DNA of 64,000 nt from a virus (lineage: Duplodnaviria > Caudoviricetes), in the IMG/VR virus record IMGVR_UViG_3300027986_000008, positions 1 to 64,000 of that record; one strand, given 5' to 3'. Positions 16,487 to 53,324 of the stretch are shown piece after piece. Under the pieces are notes generated by a model that did no database searches, was not told the origin of the DNA, and saw only the letters and a list, made by a program, of their open reading frames with translations. Each line of letters starts with the position of its first letter. Position 1 is the stretch's first letter. A program made the position numbers and the translations under genes.

Positions 16487-16831
16487 GTGGCTCGACACGG
16501 CAGAGCCGTCGTTCCGTTCGGAAAGAAGTACAAGGGAGTTCAGGTCCGCTTCCTTCCGGATCATTACCTGACGTGGCTCGCCGGTTGGCTGGCTGAGGAG
16601 CCGGAGAAGGCGAAAAGGTTTGATTTCCTCCTCGAGTCGATCCAGAGTGAGCTGCGGCATCGAGGCTTAATGGAAGTAGAAGTCGAAGTGAAGCAGGAGC
16701 CGTTCGTCTGCGAGTGCATCTACTGCGACCTGGAGGCCGGAGAGTGCCCCTGCTCGTGCCACGCAGATAAGGAGAAGCGACAGGTTCGAAGCCGAGCGAT
16801 CGACCTCGAAGAGCTTGGGGGAGAATTATGA
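16487..16831 (+). CDS. DUF3820/ExoX C-terminal-like protein
   Basis: PFGKKYKG....LPDHYLTWL. Confidence 0.6.
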   Translation: MARHGRAVVPFGKKYKGVQVRFLPDHYLTWLAGWLAEEPEKAKRFDFLLESIQSELRHRGLMEVEVEVKQEPFVCECIYCDLEAGECPCSCHADKEKRQVRSRAIDLEELGGEL

Positions 16832-16841
16832 CGGCATACGA

Positions 16842-17555
16842 ATGGGTGGTTCCTCGTTGGACGAAATTCCGGCAGGAAGGGCCGAGAAGAAGGAACGAAA
16901 GTACGAGAACGGCTTCGAGAGAGCCTACCGTATGGCTGTTCAGTCACAAGATTTCGAATTAGCCTTGGGAATGCGAAAGAAACTCAACGGAAAGAAAATC
17001 GTGTATGCAAGCTCTAGAAGAAAAGGAATAGTGATGGATCACTCCGACGTCTTCCTGGTTCTCTCTGAGATGATTCGGAAGTCCGCCGAGGTAGAGTATC
17101 CGTCCGTTCCGACGTTAAAGCTCCGTTGCTTGATCGTATCGTTCGCTCTCTTCGATTGCTCTCGAAAGCTCGGAATAACCGGAGCAAAGCTCATCGGAGG
17201 ATGGTATCGCTTTGAGCCTCCACCGACCGGCAGGCCGGTTTTCGGGGACCAATCCTGGATTCAAGTTGCGAAGATGTATCGAGATGAAAAGGACCGTCAC
17301 GCCTGGGTTGAGTACGACGAAAAGATTTGGGATTTAACGAGAACCCAGTACGGAAACTTTCCCGATGTCTCTATCGCGACGGTCCCGAACCCTCACTATA
17401 TCGCAGATTGCATATCGATGGACGGAGAACTCGTTCGTCATCTTCTTCAGTCATGCGGAAACGACGGTCCCGGAGAAGCCTTCCGAATATCCAGCCGAGT
17501 TATAGCTGAATTTGGTGCGCTAGGCGGGATTCGAACCCGCAACCAAGGAGCTTAG
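16842..17555 (+). CDS. Hypothetical protein with transglutaminase/papain-like motif; start uncertain (alternative 17034)
   Basis: C..VS.AL...HAWVEYDEKIWDLT; 3' end overlaps the antisense tRNA. Confidence 0.5.
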   Translation: MGGSSLDEIPAGRAEKKERKYENGFERAYRMAVQSQDFELALGMRKKLNGKKIVYASSRRKGIVMDHSDVFLVLSEMIRKSAEVEYPSVPTLKLRCLIVSFALFDCSRKLGITGAKLIGGWYRFEPPPTGRPVFGDQSWIQVAKMYRDEKDRHAWVEYDEKIWDLTRTQYGNFPDVSIATVPNPHYIADCISMDGELVRHLLQSCGNDGPGEAFRISSRVIAEFGALGGIRTRNQGA

Positions 17556-17590
17556 ATTTCCCTGCTCTGACCAGTTCGAGCTACTAGCGC
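17513..17590 (-). tRNA. tRNA with CUA anticodon (amber-reading)
   Basis: GCGCTAG/CTAGCGC-A-CCA acceptor; GCTC/GAGC D arm; anticodon loop ATCTAAG; GCGGG-TTCGAAT-CCCGC T arm. Confidence 0.9.
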
Positions 17591-18089
17591 TAATCACGAT
17601 AGAAATTGGTTCCGCGGGAAGGGTTCGAACCTCCGACCTCTCCGAGGCTTTAAGGGCTTCGGATCGCTCTGCCGACTGAGCTACCGCGGATCGATTGAAC
17701 TCGACCGGCCTCCAGAGCCGGTAATTCTTCAGCGCCTGCTTCCTCTCTCGATCGAGAGGCTCCGTGATCAATGACGTGAAGCCGAGACCTCCGTCCGGCT
17801 CGATCCACGCGAAGTACTCGATACCGGCATCGACGAGCTTCTGCTTCGCCTTCGAGAGAGACCGCTCGTCCGGAACTCCGACCACGACGAGGTTCGGAAC
17901 TCCGTCGATCTCGCTCCAGGAAGCGAGCGTGAGAGATGCATGGTTGGATTGAACGATCTGATTCGCCAGAGTCATGTCCTGACGCACGAAGAGGAAAACG
18001 TAACGGTCGGATGGATTATCGTGGAGGTCTTGATCGATCTATCCAGAGAGACCGACCCGCTGAACTTCTTCCGTAGCTAAAATTGCCAA
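17520..18089 (-). CDS. Pth2-like peptidyl-tRNA hydrolase with in-frame TAG at codon 17 (18039-18041); frame continues through both tRNAs
   Basis: YVFLFVRQDM...QIVQSNHA, LVVVGVPDE..L, WIEPD, TSL..EP match the Pth2/PTRHD1 pattern. The only upstream start-type codons (TTG 18089, ATT) precede the TAG. Confidence 0.75.
17607..17690 (-). tRNA. Atypical tRNA with extended anticodon arm and UUA at the loop centre (ochre-reading)
   Basis: TCCGCGG/CCGCGGA-A-CCA acceptor; normal D and T arms; arm TCCGA-A-GC-[CCTTAAA]-GC-C-TCGGA. Confidence 0.8.
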
Positions 18090-18211
18090 TTTAGAATTAC
18101 TATTGTCTTAGGTCGTACCGTCGAGACCTGTCTCACTTTACCAACCGACGGGCTGGCGCGGAGCCTCTCGGCTCCTCCGCAGCTTCCCGGAACTCAGGAA
18201 GATCACCAAAC

Positions 18212-18580
18212 GTGTCTCTCATATCGATAGAACTCGCCATACGCCTCTTCTCCCTCACAGATCCGTCCGCCAAGATCAAGGTGATAGACGAATCCGGCAA
18301 GTACCAGGGAGAAACGACGGCCACCGTCGCCTTCGCTCTCGTCCAGGGAGGAGGGGTGCTCGTGGGAGGAACGAAGTATAAGGTAAAGTACGTTCGCTAC
18401 GCGGTCGCTCACAGCTATCCGTCGCGAGCTGAGCCGGTCTGCCCGATCAAGTCTCCGCGCCAGATCTGGGACGAGACGATGGAGAGCTGGCACCAGAAGA
18501 GGGGCATACTCTCTCCTTCACCGTCCTGGCTGGGAAGCATGGGATACGAATTGAAATTCGGCATGGGCGAGAGGTCATGA
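18212..18580 (+). CDS. Hypothetical protein
   Basis: AGGA SD, GTG start. Confidence 0.55.
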   Translation: MSLISIELAIRLFSLTDPSAKIKVIDESGKYQGETTATVAFALVQGGGVLVGGTKYKVKYVRYAVAHSYPSRAEPVCPIKSPRQIWDETMESWHQKRGILSPSPSWLGSMGYELKFGMGERS

Positions 18581-34548: not shown

Positions 34549-35559
34549 ATGCCAGCACCAGTGAGTTTCGGCCAAGCCCTGCCCGTCCTCGGGCTGAACA
34601 ACGGCTTTCCGGGAACGTTTTCCCGGCTCCACCCAACGATCGCGTCTCGGCAAGTACTCTCGACGACGCCTAACAACCTTCTATTCGGCGCTCCGTGCGT
34701 CATCATCGCGGACTCGCAAGGAGGAACCGTCCAGTCCGTGGCAGACTTCATCGCCGCGGCTGCCGGTAATTCCGGCAGCGTATACGGACAGTTCGGCGGC
34801 ATCGCGGTGCGCGAGGTTAAGACGGTCCTCACGTACCAGAACGGCCTAACTCCAGGAACGCAGCAGACCGGCTTTTTCGCTCCCGGCGAGATGGCCGATA
34901 TCCTGGAGGCCGGGTCGGTCTGCGTCCCGATCGTTGAAGGCACTCCGGTCAGTCAGGCTCCGGTCTACGTTCGCGTGTTCGCGAATACCTCGACCGGAAC
35001 ATTCACTGCCAACACCGCAGTCGGCAGTAACGTGCTCTTATCGGTGTCATCCTTCACCGGAGTCCAACTCGGCCAGGGATTGAGCGGCACTGGCATTCCG
35101 TCCGGTACGATCGTCGGAGCCGTCAACACTACGGCGAGCACCATCACGATGGTCTTCCCCGGTGGCCTTCCCGCTCTCGCAACCGCGGCCGGAACCGGCA
35201 CTACTGTAACCTTCTCGAACACCGTCACAGCCGTCGGAGACCTGGAGGCGGAAGATGACGTTGCCGCCACCACGACCATGACGGCGGTGGCTGCGTCCGC
35301 AAACATTACGGTGGCCTCGGCAACCGGAATTAACGTCGGCCAGATCGCAGTCGGAGGATCGATTCCTCCGGGGACCGGAGTTACCGTCGTGAGCGGTACG
35401 ACTATCACTCTCTCGGTGGCTGTGCCGACGGTTGCTGCGCCCGGTACTGCCGTCACGTTCCATAACACCCTGGCTTTGCCGCTGACGGTGTTCCGGACCG
35501 GCAACCTCGACGCCAACTTCGTGGCGGAGATCACGCTGAAGGCTCGCGTAGCGGCCTAA
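34549..35559 (+). CDS. Capsid decoration/cement protein with inserted beta domains
   Basis: Between protease and MCP; G.PG, G.AVR and VYVR motifs. Confidence 0.75.
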   Translation: MPAPVSFGQALPVLGLNNGFPGTFSRLHPTIASRQVLSTTPNNLLFGAPCVIIADSQGGTVQSVADFIAAAAGNSGSVYGQFGGIAVREVKTVLTYQNGLTPGTQQTGFFAPGEMADILEAGSVCVPIVEGTPVSQAPVYVRVFANTSTGTFTANTAVGSNVLLSVSSFTGVQLGQGLSGTGIPSGTIVGAVNTTASTITMVFPGGLPALATAAGTGTTVTFSNTVTAVGDLEAEDDVAATTTMTAVAASANITVASATGINVGQIAVGGSIPPGTGVTVVSGTTITLSVAVPTVAAPGTAVTFHNTLALPLTVFRTGNLDANFVAEITLKARVAA

Positions 35560-52645: not shown

Positions 52646-53324
52646 CGGAAATTTTGGACTCGGACTAGATCAGAGGCTCTTGCCTTCGATCGCACGTTCT
52701 CAACGATTCTTAGATTCCCTCCTTCAAGCCATGAGGTGTGCGGTTCCGGCGATCGTCCAGTCTTTCTCGGCCGGACCTCCGGCGACGGTATCGGTAGTCA
52801 TCGCGACGAATGAATTGGTCACGAAGGCATTAGATGACGATCCGTTCTCGGTGCAGAGCGAGGCTCTTCAGATTCCGGTTCTTACGGACGTTCCCATTTT
52901 GATTCCCTCTGCTGGAGGCTTCAGCTTTACGGTTCCGATAACGCAGGGTGACGAGGTTCTGCTAGTATTCTCAGATACGGAGATCGACTCGTGGCTTCAA
53001 TCCGGAGGAATGAATAACCATCCGACGTCCCAGAGAAGGCATAATCTTTCAGACGCCGTCGCAATAGTCGGATTGAGATCTGCTCCGCGAGCGCTCTCCT
53101 CCTACTCAACCACTTCTGCACAGGTGAGGAGCGACGACGGCACGGTGGTAATCGACCTTAAGCCGGATCAGATCTCTGTAACAGCCCCCACGGTGCTTGT
53201 GACCGGGAGCACGACCGTTACGATCTCGGGAAACAACACTACCTCGATCGACGGTAAAGATTTTCTTCTCCACAAGCACAGCGGAGTTGCGGCCGGTTTA
53301 GCGACGACCGGGCCGGTGGTATAA
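52638..53324 (+). CDS. Baseplate spike (gp138/gpV-like)
   Basis: P.L.DVP, P...GDE.L.VF, R.H.LSD and HKH tip. Confidence 0.88.
   Translation: MGSGNFGLGLDQRLLPSIARSQRFLDSLLQAMRCAVPAIVQSFSAGPPATVSVVIATNELVTKALDDDPFSVQSEALQIPVLTDVPILIPSAGGFSFTVPITQGDEVLLVFSDTEIDSWLQSGGMNNHPTSQRRHNLSDAVAIVGLRSAPRALSSYSTTSAQVRSDDGTVVIDLKPDQISVTAPTVLVTGSTTVTISGNNTTSIDGKDFLLHKHSGVAAGLATTGPVV

What the first reader, a model, noticed from the sequence alone, without database searches (positions are those of the whole stretch)
17520..17720. Pth2 ORF has no stop before the tRNAs, so tRNA maturation should create a non-stop mRNA
Seen: after the apparent domain end (...LKNYRLWRP) the frame stays open for about 60 codons through both tRNA genes. 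It ends only at a TAG inside the acceptor stem of the CUA tRNA (17520-17522). Known: RNase P cuts at tRNA 5' ends, and ArfA is made from a truncated non-stop mRNA so that tmRNA destroys it unless rescue is saturated. Inference: a second control layer couples Pth2 to ribosome-rescue status, and ribosomes reading through could also block tRNA folding.
Basis: partly seen in the sequence, partly recalled or inferred. Interest (0 to 1): 0.75.

Follow-up and report, generated by a model that had tools for sequence, protein, structure and literature searches.

The report
Stop-less phage gene running into tRNAs
A small phage gene for a peptidyl-tRNA-hydrolase-like protein has no stop codon of its own and runs straight into two stop-codon-reading tRNA genes; a whole clade of related phages keeps this layout, so cutting out the tRNAs should leave a message without a stop, though no RNA or protein data yet show it.

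Summary
On the minus strand, the Pth2-fold ORF has no in-frame stop between its last conserved residue (W, 17712-17714) and tRNA(UUA) (17607-17690). It stays open for 63 codons, to the TAG at 17520-17522 in the 3' acceptor strand of tRNA(CUA) (17513-17590).

This is not an assembly slip: two other assemblies are identical.

The layout is not peculiar to this phage. In a protein tree of 46 family loci, a well-supported clade of 23 holds 20 members with the same stop-less junction to a tRNA. A few of these abut a 50-nt tRNA-like element instead. The sister group of 23, which includes cultured jumbo phages, always has a normal stop 2-42 codons after the motif.

In all 11 loci where a tRNA starts within 21 nt, the ORF frame is open through the whole first tRNA. 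The background rate for this is 11-51% per frame.

RNase P maturation must therefore produce stop-less messages. That step is inferred, and I saw no RNA data. Whether the purpose is ArfA-like coupling to ribosome rescue, or ribosome invasion throttling tRNA maturation, remains open.

Published analogues exist: arfA, plant-mitochondrial t-elements, selB-selC and Carsonella smpB-ssrA.

This scan found the same layout before on other phage DNA (e1-5807930, e1-5734782, e1-3754324, e1-5729430).

The parts
17691..18089 (-). Pth2-fold ORF as far as the tRNA boundary: candidate TTG start at 18089, in-frame TAG at codon 17, domain, then the 7-codon linker RPVEFNR. There is no stop codon.
   Evidence: translation; coding score; homologues; 1482 representatives at E<=1e-3.
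18039..18041 (-). In-frame amber codon upstream of the first beta strand. It gates translation of the whole ORF.
   Evidence: The same early TAG is present in 49 of 53 family loci.
17712..18005 (-). Conserved Pth2-fold domain (R29 to W126 of P0004).
   Evidence: AlphaFold2 with 48 sequences gives pLDDT 87.4. Foldseek top hits are Pth2/Bit1 structures with probability 1.00 and TM 0.56-0.69. Pfam PTH2 is only sub-threshold.
17690..17691 (-). Predicted RNase P cleavage site. 17691 is the last base of the message (end of codon CGA) and 17690 is tRNA(UUA) base +1.
   Evidence: tRNA 5' end from ARAGORN and Rfam. The cleavage itself is inferred, not observed.
17607..17690 (-). tRNA with anticodon UUA (ochre-reading), an extended anticodon arm and encoded CCA. 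It is read through in the only one of its three frames that has no stop.
17591..17606 (-). 16-nt spacer between the two tRNAs, also open in the ORF frame.
17513..17590 (-). tRNA with anticodon CUA (amber-reading) and encoded CCA.
17520..17522 (-). First in-frame stop (TAG) of the ORF, inside the 3' acceptor strand of tRNA(CUA), 63 codons after W126.

Best explanation
The Pth2-fold gene and the two suppressor tRNA genes form one transcription unit with no stop codon and no room for a promoter or terminator between them. tRNA(UUA) can only get its mature 5' end if RNase P cuts between 17691 and 17690. That cut removes every in-frame stop from the upstream message. Each transcript therefore has two exclusive fates.

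(a) Cut first. The message is stop-less. Ribosomes that passed the early amber codon stall at its 3' end and need rescue. tmRNA would tag the protein for destruction, whereas ArfA/ArfB-type release would free an untagged protein ending ...EFNR.

(b) Translated first. Ribosomes run through tRNA(UUA), the spacer and most of tRNA(CUA). This adds a 63-residue junk tail and keeps the tRNAs unfolded meanwhile.

I take the layout to be selected, not accidental. Its most likely effect is that the yield of intact Pth2-like protein is kept low and depends on the cell's ribosome-rescue load, an arfA-like logic with RNase P in place of RNase III. In that logic the long tRNA-encoded tail would play the part of the destabilising C-terminus of full-length ArfA.

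Shown: the anatomy, its conservation and the open frame through the first tRNA.
Inferred: co-transcription, the RNase P cut, stalling, tagging and any regulatory benefit.
For: There is no stop before the tRNA in the window, and the sequence is identical in two other assemblies.

The same junction occurs in 16 related loci by ARAGORN. Rfam confirms the abutting tRNA in 10 related loci, 8 of them among the 16, and in the window itself. Four further loci are supported by Rfam or by a translated-tRNA tail.

Among the best family representatives whose C-terminal motif is recognisable, most have tails of 15 to over 100 residues. Many of these tails carry translated-tRNA signatures such as VAQ and GSNP/GSSP.

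The tree shows one starred clade (97/95) with 20 of 23 members stop-less, at 31-57% protein identity to the window gene and GC from 40 to 58%.

The gap between the last conserved residue and tRNA base +1 is 0-21 nt in 11 loci. In three of them the tRNA starts directly after the Y codon. No promoter can fit there, so the tRNA leader must be the message.

Where the gap is longer, the ORF abuts a roughly 50-nt tRNA-like element ending in NCCA, with compensatory changes in its outer stem. That is another likely RNase P substrate at the ORF end.

The first in-frame stop sits at no conserved place: 5-41 nt past the first tRNA, or inside the second tRNA. This is what one expects if that stop is not the functional end.

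Precedents: a single RNase P cut separates secG mRNA from leuU, after which the mRNA is rapidly degraded (PMC2241853). arfA is expressed from an RNase III-made non-stop mRNA under tmRNA control, and its full-length product is unstable through its C-terminus (PMC3989581). The ccmC and nad6 mRNAs end inside their ORFs at RNase P-cut t-elements (PMC1920247).
Against: I found no RNA or protein data. No RNA-seq holder is listed, so neither the cut, nor stalling, nor tagging has been seen.

All stop-less loci descend from one ancestor. Their conservation is retention, not repeated invention.

The linkers are so short (about 22 codons summed over the abutting loci) that the absence of a stop in them is not improbable on its own.

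Three clade members (L003, L046, L047) have regained a stop. So has the whole sister group, so the protein does not need a stop-less message to function.

A message cut by RNase P has no protective 3' hairpin and may be degraded before it is translated much, as happens with secG.

RNase-P-made non-stop messages alone do not predict the open frame through the whole first tRNA.

The window gene lacks the usual ATG-NNN-TAG leader, and its start codon is uncertain.
Confidence: 0.45

Rival explanations
1. Ribosome invasion acts as a homeostat for the suppressor tRNA. The early amber codon senses the amber suppressor. When it is scarce, ribosomes stop at codon 17, the RNA downstream is bare, the tRNAs fold and RNase P matures them. 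When it is plentiful, ribosomes read on. Because there is no stop, they plough through the tRNA sequence, keeping it unfolded and unprocessed while they make the Pth2-like protein. The stop-less junction would then exist to let ribosomes into the tRNA. Non-stop messages would be a side effect.
For: The ORF frame is open through the entire first tRNA in 11 of 11 loci where the tRNA starts within 21 nt, and also in L037. Among 80 other tRNAs of the same loci, the three frames are open in only 39%, 11% and 51% of cases (4 of 21 for frame 0 of CUA tRNAs). Counting about 7 independent events gives p of roughly 1e-3. The frame closes again 5-41 nt after the tRNA. The first tRNA is the amber suppressor in 12 of 16 loci, which is the tRNA that reads the conserved early TAG (49 of 53 loci). 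A comparable competition was proposed for the selB ORF that contains selC (PMC8124441).
Against: In the window itself the first tRNA is UUA, not CUA. In L016 and L032 it is an ordinary Lys or Arg tRNA. The abutting tRNAs are mostly orthologues, so the frame statistics rest on few independent events. The sign of the feedback is uncertain, because early termination at TAG could also expose the RNA to Rho and lower tRNA output. A ribosome terminating just before the tRNA would also cover its 5' strand, so the total absence of a stop is not strictly required. There are no RNA data.
Confidence: 0.3
2. This is a tolerated accident of tight packing. An ancestral deletion or tRNA insertion removed the stop. 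The tRNA-encoded tail, or the occasional stalled ribosome, costs little, and the arrangement has simply been inherited. It has no regulatory role.
For: The layout has a single origin on the tree. The linkers are too short for a new stop to be expected often. Stops were regained three times without loss of the gene (L003, L046, L047). CDS-tRNA overlaps occur at low frequency in bacteria, about 1 in 15,000 CDSs, mostly as a few lineage-specific events (PMC4131195). Another note of this scan (e1-5815298) judged tight packing the better explanation for a different phage tRNA island.
Against: The layout is retained in 20 of 23 members across deep divergence, with path lengths around 1 change per site. 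During that time the linker length (0-21 nt), the reading phase and even the identity of the first tRNA changed (CUA, UUA, CUU, UCU). Every phase change landed on a frame that is open through the tRNA. The tRNA or tRNA-like element starts within 0-21 nt of the last conserved residue in most loci, which is more regular than drift would give.
Confidence: 0.2
3. The feature is an artefact or a dead gene. Either the missing stop is a sequencing or assembly error, or the ORF is a decaying pseudogene next to a tRNA pair.
For: The window gene lacks the ATG-NNN-TAG leader of its relatives and has no Shine-Dalgarno sequence before the only upstream start (TTG 18089). Its terminal branch is rather long (0.58).
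Against: Three assemblies are identical, one at depth 26. All invariant family residues are kept (F34, R36, H50, D99). The coding score is strong. The same junction is found in 19 other loci.
Confidence: 0.03

Closest known systems
E. coli arfA: a programmed non-stop mRNA controlled by tmRNA (PMC3989581)
   Same: An endonuclease site lies inside or at the end of the ORF, upstream of any stop. The cut message is stop-less. The product of the uncut message carries a C-terminal extension that makes it unstable. The gene product belongs to peptidyl-tRNA and ribosome-rescue biology.
   Different: The nuclease would be RNase P acting on a real tRNA, not RNase III acting on a hairpin. The downstream piece is itself a functional product, a suppressor tRNA. 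There is an extra amber gate at the 5' end. This is a phage gene with a Pth2 fold, not ArfA. Nothing has been shown experimentally.
Plant-mitochondrial t-elements at the ends of ccmC and nad6 (Forner et al. 2007, PMC1920247)
   Same: tRNA-like structures inside the ORF end direct RNase P cleavage, so the major mRNA 3' ends lie upstream of the stop codon. This has been mapped experimentally. It is the best match for the loci where a 50-nt tRNA-like element follows the ORF.
   Different: That system is organellar. The t-elements are not functional tRNAs. It has no link to suppressor tRNAs or to an amber gate.
selC (tRNA-Sec) nested in the selB ORF of Alphaproteobacteria (Mukai 2021, PMC8124441; also counted in PMC4131195)
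   Same: A protein ORF reads through an entire same-strand tRNA gene whose product is the protein's functional partner. The proposed effect is that folding and processing of the tRNA represses the full-length protein. It too is a bioinformatic prediction only.
   Different: selB continues to a defined end that overlaps the next gene. That case is cellular, not phage. The tRNA reads UGA as Sec with SelB and is not a general suppressor.
Carsonella smpB running into ssrA (Hudson, Lau and Williams 2014, PMC4131195)
   Same: A CDS without its own stop extends into a tRNA-like RNA gene, with random tail residues. [quoted passage not shown]
   Different: It is confined to half of the strains of one reduced endosymbiont, and the authors regard it as rare. 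Here a deep and diverse phage clade keeps the layout.
E. coli secG-leuU co-transcript (Mohanty and Kushner 2007, PMC2241853)
   Same: An mRNA is followed directly by a tRNA on one transcript. A single RNase P cut makes both the tRNA 5' end and the mRNA 3' end, and the mRNA is then degraded rapidly.
   Different: secG has its stop codon 14 nt before the cut, so the message is not stop-less.
Animal mitochondrial tRNA punctuation (from my own knowledge: Ojala, Montoya and Attardi 1981)
   Same: ORFs abut tRNA genes, and tRNA excision defines the mRNA ends.
   Different: There, incomplete stops (U or UA) are completed by polyadenylation. Here the message would end ...AAU CGA, which cannot be completed to a stop.

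Membership tests
Pth2 peptidyl-tRNA hydrolase (PF01981) | Pth2 alpha/beta fold | tested here: met
   The model has pLDDT 87.4. The twelve best Foldseek PDB matches (ranks 1-12) are Pth2-type chains (MJ0051, AF2095, Bit1, PH1539, Sulfolobus Pth2 and others) and Atu0240, with probability 1.00 and TM 0.56-0.69.
Pth2 peptidyl-tRNA hydrolase (PF01981) | Sequence match above Pfam's gathering score (23 bits) | tested here: not met
   The scores are 13.3 and 14.8 bits. Seven of 15 close relatives match only at E 0.001-0.1. PDB sequence searches give nothing useful. This is best called Pth2-fold or Pth2-like (PHROG 1866 / 34073, function unknown).
Pth2 peptidyl-tRNA hydrolase (PF01981) | Catalytic residues and hydrolase activity | tested here: inconclusive
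   Invariant H50 and D99, and conserved T105/T109, lie where I recall Pth2 having its His and Asp/Thr motifs. The Lys of the Pth2 GK motif appears to be replaced by Q44. There is no residue-level structural alignment and no assay.
arfA-type programmed non-stop gene | An endonuclease site upstream of every in-frame stop | tested here: met
   At sequence level, the tRNA 5' end at 17690 precedes the first stop at 17520-17522. The same holds in 19 related loci.
arfA-type programmed non-stop gene | The cut message exists in vivo and its product is tagged by tmRNA | not testable with these tools
   No RNA holder is listed. Only DNA contigs could be laid.
arfA-type programmed non-stop gene | The product of the uncut message is unstable | not testable with these tools
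   The tail is 63 residues of translated tRNA. Its stability is unknown.
Mitochondrial-type tRNA punctuation | The ORF abuts the tRNA and an incomplete stop is completed by polyadenylation | tested here: not met
   The ORF abuts the tRNA after 7 linker codons, but the terminal bases are CGA (17691-17693). No U or UA is available to complete a stop.
Ordinary bacterial mRNA-tRNA co-transcript (secG-leuU type) | A stop codon upstream of the RNase P site | tested here: not met
   There is no in-frame stop between 18038 and 17523.
Canonical tRNA (RF00005) | Covariance-model score above the gathering score, with cloverleaf and CCA | tested here: met
   The scores are 46.9 and 52.3 bits against 29, and ARAGORN also calls both. 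tRNA(UUA) has a 15-nt stretch where the model has a 7-nt anticodon loop, which I read as an extended anticodon arm.
Stop-codon-recoded phage (code 15 or similar) | The reassigned stop is used as a sense codon throughout the coding genes | tested here: not met
   All three stops end regions with a strong coding score (TAA 23, TAG 11, TGA 29). No TAG has coding signal on both sides at that threshold.

The most novel reading that the evidence does not exclude
This is a self-sensing translation-control cassette. The phage's suppressor tRNA reads the amber codon at the head of an ORF that runs, without a stop, through that tRNA's own gene. Ribosome flow then both makes a Pth2-like enzyme and blocks maturation of further suppressor tRNA. 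Transcripts cut by RNase P become stop-less and tie the enzyme's yield to the host's ribosome-rescue capacity. This would be a natural homeostat for stop-codon read-through, built from one transcript.
Probability: 0.3. Interest if true: 0.85.

Novelty: new variant of a known kind. Interest (0 to 1): 0.7.

Why it matters
Programmed stop-less messages are known from very few cases: arfA, two plant mitochondrial genes, and predictions for selB and Carsonella smpB. Here a diverse clade of soil and freshwater phages keeps a stop-less junction between a tRNA-hydrolase-like gene and the very tRNAs that override stop codons, on top of an amber codon at the gene's head.

If the layout is functional, it would show how a phage that otherwise uses the standard code keeps a dangerous suppressor tRNA in check, or how it copes with the stalled ribosomes that suppression creates. 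It would also give the orphan suppressor tRNAs of cultured jumbo phages a natural target. For example, the XacN1 authors could find none (PMC5852040).

There is a practical side too. Gene callers report these genes truncated at the 5' end and with junk C-terminal tails, so the family is systematically mis-annotated.

The cassette is about 600 bp long and could be tested directly in E. coli.

Tried and rejected
- **Genome-wide recoding.** ORF statistics under alternative codes are uninformative at 57% GC. Same-frame ORF pairs are not enriched for TAG or TAA. The codon-score test shows all three stops in use. I rejected a recoded genome.
- **Promoter and terminator scan of 17200-18500.** No promoter-like site was found. 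The single terminator-like hairpin lies inside the convergent ORF.
- **Searches that failed at first.** A single-protein search of viral contigs found nothing. The 48-sequence alignment was too diverse for pattern search, but the 15-sequence alignment worked.
- **Structure prediction.** The first prediction, with 3 sequences, was useless (pLDDT 42).
- **PDB sequence searches.** These gave only chance hits.
- **Missing DNA.** DNA for P0005 and P0084 was not available.
- **RNA evidence.** No RNA holder is listed. The laid runs were DNA contigs only, and X2 covers only about 32 nt of the tRNA(CUA) region.
- **Prokaryote genomes.** Only two MAG contigs matched, and one is identical to L032 over the 600 bases compared. 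No cultured host is available.
- **Cultured phages.** INPHARED holds only the version with a normal stop. No lab phage with the stop-less junction was found.
- **Rfam.** It finds no family for the tRNA-like element or for the GC hairpin in L002-L004.
- **Literature.** Searches for a stop-less gene-tRNA junction in phages found nothing.
- **Ideas considered and dropped.** The tail as a functional protein domain: its sequence is dictated by the tRNA and it ends at random places. Completion of a stop by polyadenylation: the message ends in CGA. A tethered enzyme releasing its own nascent chain: the ester bond lies buried in the ribosome.

Full report
**Setting.** The window is the first 64 kb of a 102,276-bp virus record rated complete, with 57% GC. 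The whole genome holds only two tRNA genes, and both read stop codons. tRNA(UUA) lies at 17607-17690 and tRNA(CUA) at 17513-17590, both on the minus strand. ARAGORN and Rfam call both, and both encode CCA. The genome is not recoded: TAA, TAG and TGA all terminate regions with a strong coding score (23, 11 and 29 cases), and no TAG has coding signal on both sides.

**The observation.** The minus-strand ORF listed as 17520..17987 reads ...LKNYRLWRPVEFNR up to base 17691. It then continues in frame through tRNA(UUA), the 16-nt spacer and 68 nt of tRNA(CUA). It ends at the TAG at 17520-17522, which lies in the 3' acceptor strand. That is 63 codons after the conserved W. The codon-usage score is high in this frame from about 18050 to 17780 and collapses inside the tRNAs. 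So the gene is real and the tail is not coding-like. An ENA contig is identical over 3.5 kb, and a Logan contig at depth 26 is identical over the 751 bases laid. The finding is therefore confirmed as written.

One correction is needed. The conserved first strand (DRYVFLF) lies upstream of GTG 17987 and behind an in-frame TAG at 18039-18041.

**What the protein is.** Pfam PTH2 matches only below threshold (13-15 bits against 23). With 48 relatives, AlphaFold2 gives a confident model (pLDDT 87.4). Its twelve best PDB matches are Pth2-type structures plus Atu0240 (MJ0051, AF2095, Bit1, PH1539, Sulfolobus Pth2), at probability 1.00 and TM 0.56-0.69. I call it Pth2-fold; catalysis is untested.

The family is large: 1482 cluster representatives at E<=1e-3. 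It is essentially viral, with only two hits in one genome each of 185,579 prokaryote species, both on MAG contigs.

**Do homologues lack the stop?** I collected 53 loci:
- the window;
- five metagenome contigs;
- nine regions of public phage records, eight of them cultured phages;
- 39 IMG/VR loci.

For each I tabulated the N-terminal context, the distance to the next in-frame stop, and the tRNAs.

Sixteen loci have a same-strand tRNA starting 0-169 nt after the last conserved residue, and none has a stop before it. Rfam confirms the abutting tRNA in ten related loci, eight of them among the sixteen, and in the window itself. Four more loci (L020, L030, L031, L034) show it through Rfam or a translated-tRNA tail. 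Many of the best database representatives also have long tails with signatures such as VAQ (GTAGCTCAG) and GSNP/GSSP (GGTTCGAATCC).

By contrast, the cultured jumbo phages end 2-9 codons after the motif: ME3, Arash, XbC2, GAP32, RaK2, RsoM2USA, Kaldavass and Xoo-sp13. A second group of uncultured phages ends 1-42 codons after it.

A maximum-likelihood tree of 46 non-redundant loci splits cleanly (97/95). One clade of 23 holds 20 stop-less members and three that regained a stop. The other 23 all have stops. The stop-less junction therefore arose once and has been kept across deep divergence.

**Junction anatomy.**
- In 11 loci the tRNA starts 0-21 nt after the last conserved codon. In three it starts directly after it.
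- Where the gap is longer (L002, L018, L046), the ORF abuts a roughly 50-nt tRNA-like element: a 7-bp stem, two hairpins, then NCCA. Its outer stem shows compensatory changes.
- The first tRNA is the amber suppressor in 12 of 16 loci. In the window it is the UUA tRNA.

**A new point.** In all 11 abutting loci, and in L037, the frame in which the ORF enters the tRNA has no stop anywhere in that tRNA. Among 80 other tRNAs of the same loci, the three frames are open in 39%, 11% and 51% of cases. Allowing for shared ancestry, I count about seven independent events, which gives p of roughly 1e-3. This is suggestive, not decisive. After the first tRNA the frame closes within 5-41 nt, or inside the second tRNA where the spacer is short.

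**Mechanism.** The strong inference is structural. With 0-21 nt between ORF and tRNA, the tRNA's 5' leader is the message. RNase P must cut at tRNA +1, and that cut leaves a message without any stop. In E. coli, a single RNase P cut separates secG mRNA from leuU and the mRNA is then rapidly degraded (PMC2241853). In plant mitochondria, RNase P cuts at t-elements give ccmC and nad6 mRNAs that end inside their ORFs (PMC1920247). I put the chance that stop-less messages form in vivo at about 0.8.

What the layout is for remains open. There are three readings:
This fits the anatomy. It can absorb the open-frame result if the long junk tail destabilises the product of uncut transcripts, as the C-terminus does for full-length ArfA (PMC3989581).
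- **The ribosome-invasion reading.** This ties together the early amber codon, the missing stop, the open frame through the tRNA and the fact that the first tRNA is usually the amber suppressor. Its sign is uncertain, and the window's first tRNA is UUA.
- **Neutral inheritance.** This cannot be excluded, because the layout has a single origin and the linkers are short.

**Known analogues and novelty.** CDS-t(m)RNA overlaps as sources of non-stop messages were surveyed by Hudson et al. at about 1 in 15,000 CDSs. Their survey includes Carsonella smpB-ssrA and Rhizobiales selB (PMC4131195). Mukai predicted selC nested in selB, with a similar competition idea (PMC8124441). I found no paper describing the phage Pth2-like/suppressor-tRNA case. 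The XacN1 authors could not find targets for their CUA tRNAs.

This scan has met the same stop-less layout on other phage genomes (e1-5807930, e1-5734782, e1-3754324, e1-5729430, e1-5378572). I read those notes only after my own tabulation. They supplied three literature leads, which I then checked myself.

**Verdict.** It is conserved in one deep clade. The mechanism is plausible but unproven. It is a new variant of a known, rare kind.

Noticed in passing
window 18039-18041; L002-L055: An in-frame TAG sits just upstream of the first beta strand in 49 of 53 family loci, usually as ATG-NNN-TAG. This includes cultured jumbo phages (ME3, Arash, XbC2, GAP32, RaK2, RsoM2USA, Kaldavass). In those records the gene is therefore annotated truncated, split (Arash gp85c/gp84c) or not at all.
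   Followed up: partly
L002:587-638, L018:1807-1896, L046:1811-1866: A tRNA-like element of about 50 nt lies directly after the ORF, ahead of the tRNA(CUA) or other tRNA that follows. It has a 7-bp stem with compensatory changes, two hairpins and then NCCA. Rfam is silent on it.
   Followed up: partly
L002 about 718-770; L003 about 1337-1395; L046 about 1868-1920: The 3' half of a long GC-rich hairpin is conserved (...ATCTTCAGTGRYTCYCCGCCYACCA). It follows the tRNA(CUA) in L002 and the tRNA-like element in L046, and lies downstream of the gene in L003. Its nature is unknown. It may be a 3'-processing element of the kind reported next to phage suppressor tRNAs (theta ribozymes, PMC10879173), but I did not test that.
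   Followed up: no
window 17607-17690 (-): tRNA(UUA) has an anticodon arm extended to about 9 pairs (15 nt where the model has a 7-nt loop) and C at position 33. Its acceptor, D and T arms resemble the tRNA-Lys(UUU) of L003:2143-2214. This suggests a Lys-derived ochre suppressor.
   Followed up: partly
window 16815-17555 (+): The convergent 246-aa ORF ends inside the tRNA(CUA) gene on the opposite strand, with a 43-nt overlap. It has no PHROG match, so its real end is uncertain.
   Followed up: no
window 53322-53324 and 35557-35559 (+): The TAA at 53322 is followed in frame by 125 codons that match a baseplate wedge family from profile position 58. The TAA at 35557 separates a virion structural protein ORF and the major head protein in the same frame. 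These may be targets of the ochre-reading tRNA, or simply adjacent genes.
   Followed up: no
window 18042-18089 (-): Unlike its relatives (…VMT-TAG-I…), the window gene has no ATG just before the TAG. The only in-frame start upstream is TTG 18089, 16 codons before the TAG, and it has no Shine-Dalgarno sequence.
   Followed up: partly
L015, L022, L028, L033 and others: Many cassettes carry two tRNA(CUA) genes in tandem, 1-67 nt apart. The ORF always covers the first and usually stops before the second.
   Followed up: partly
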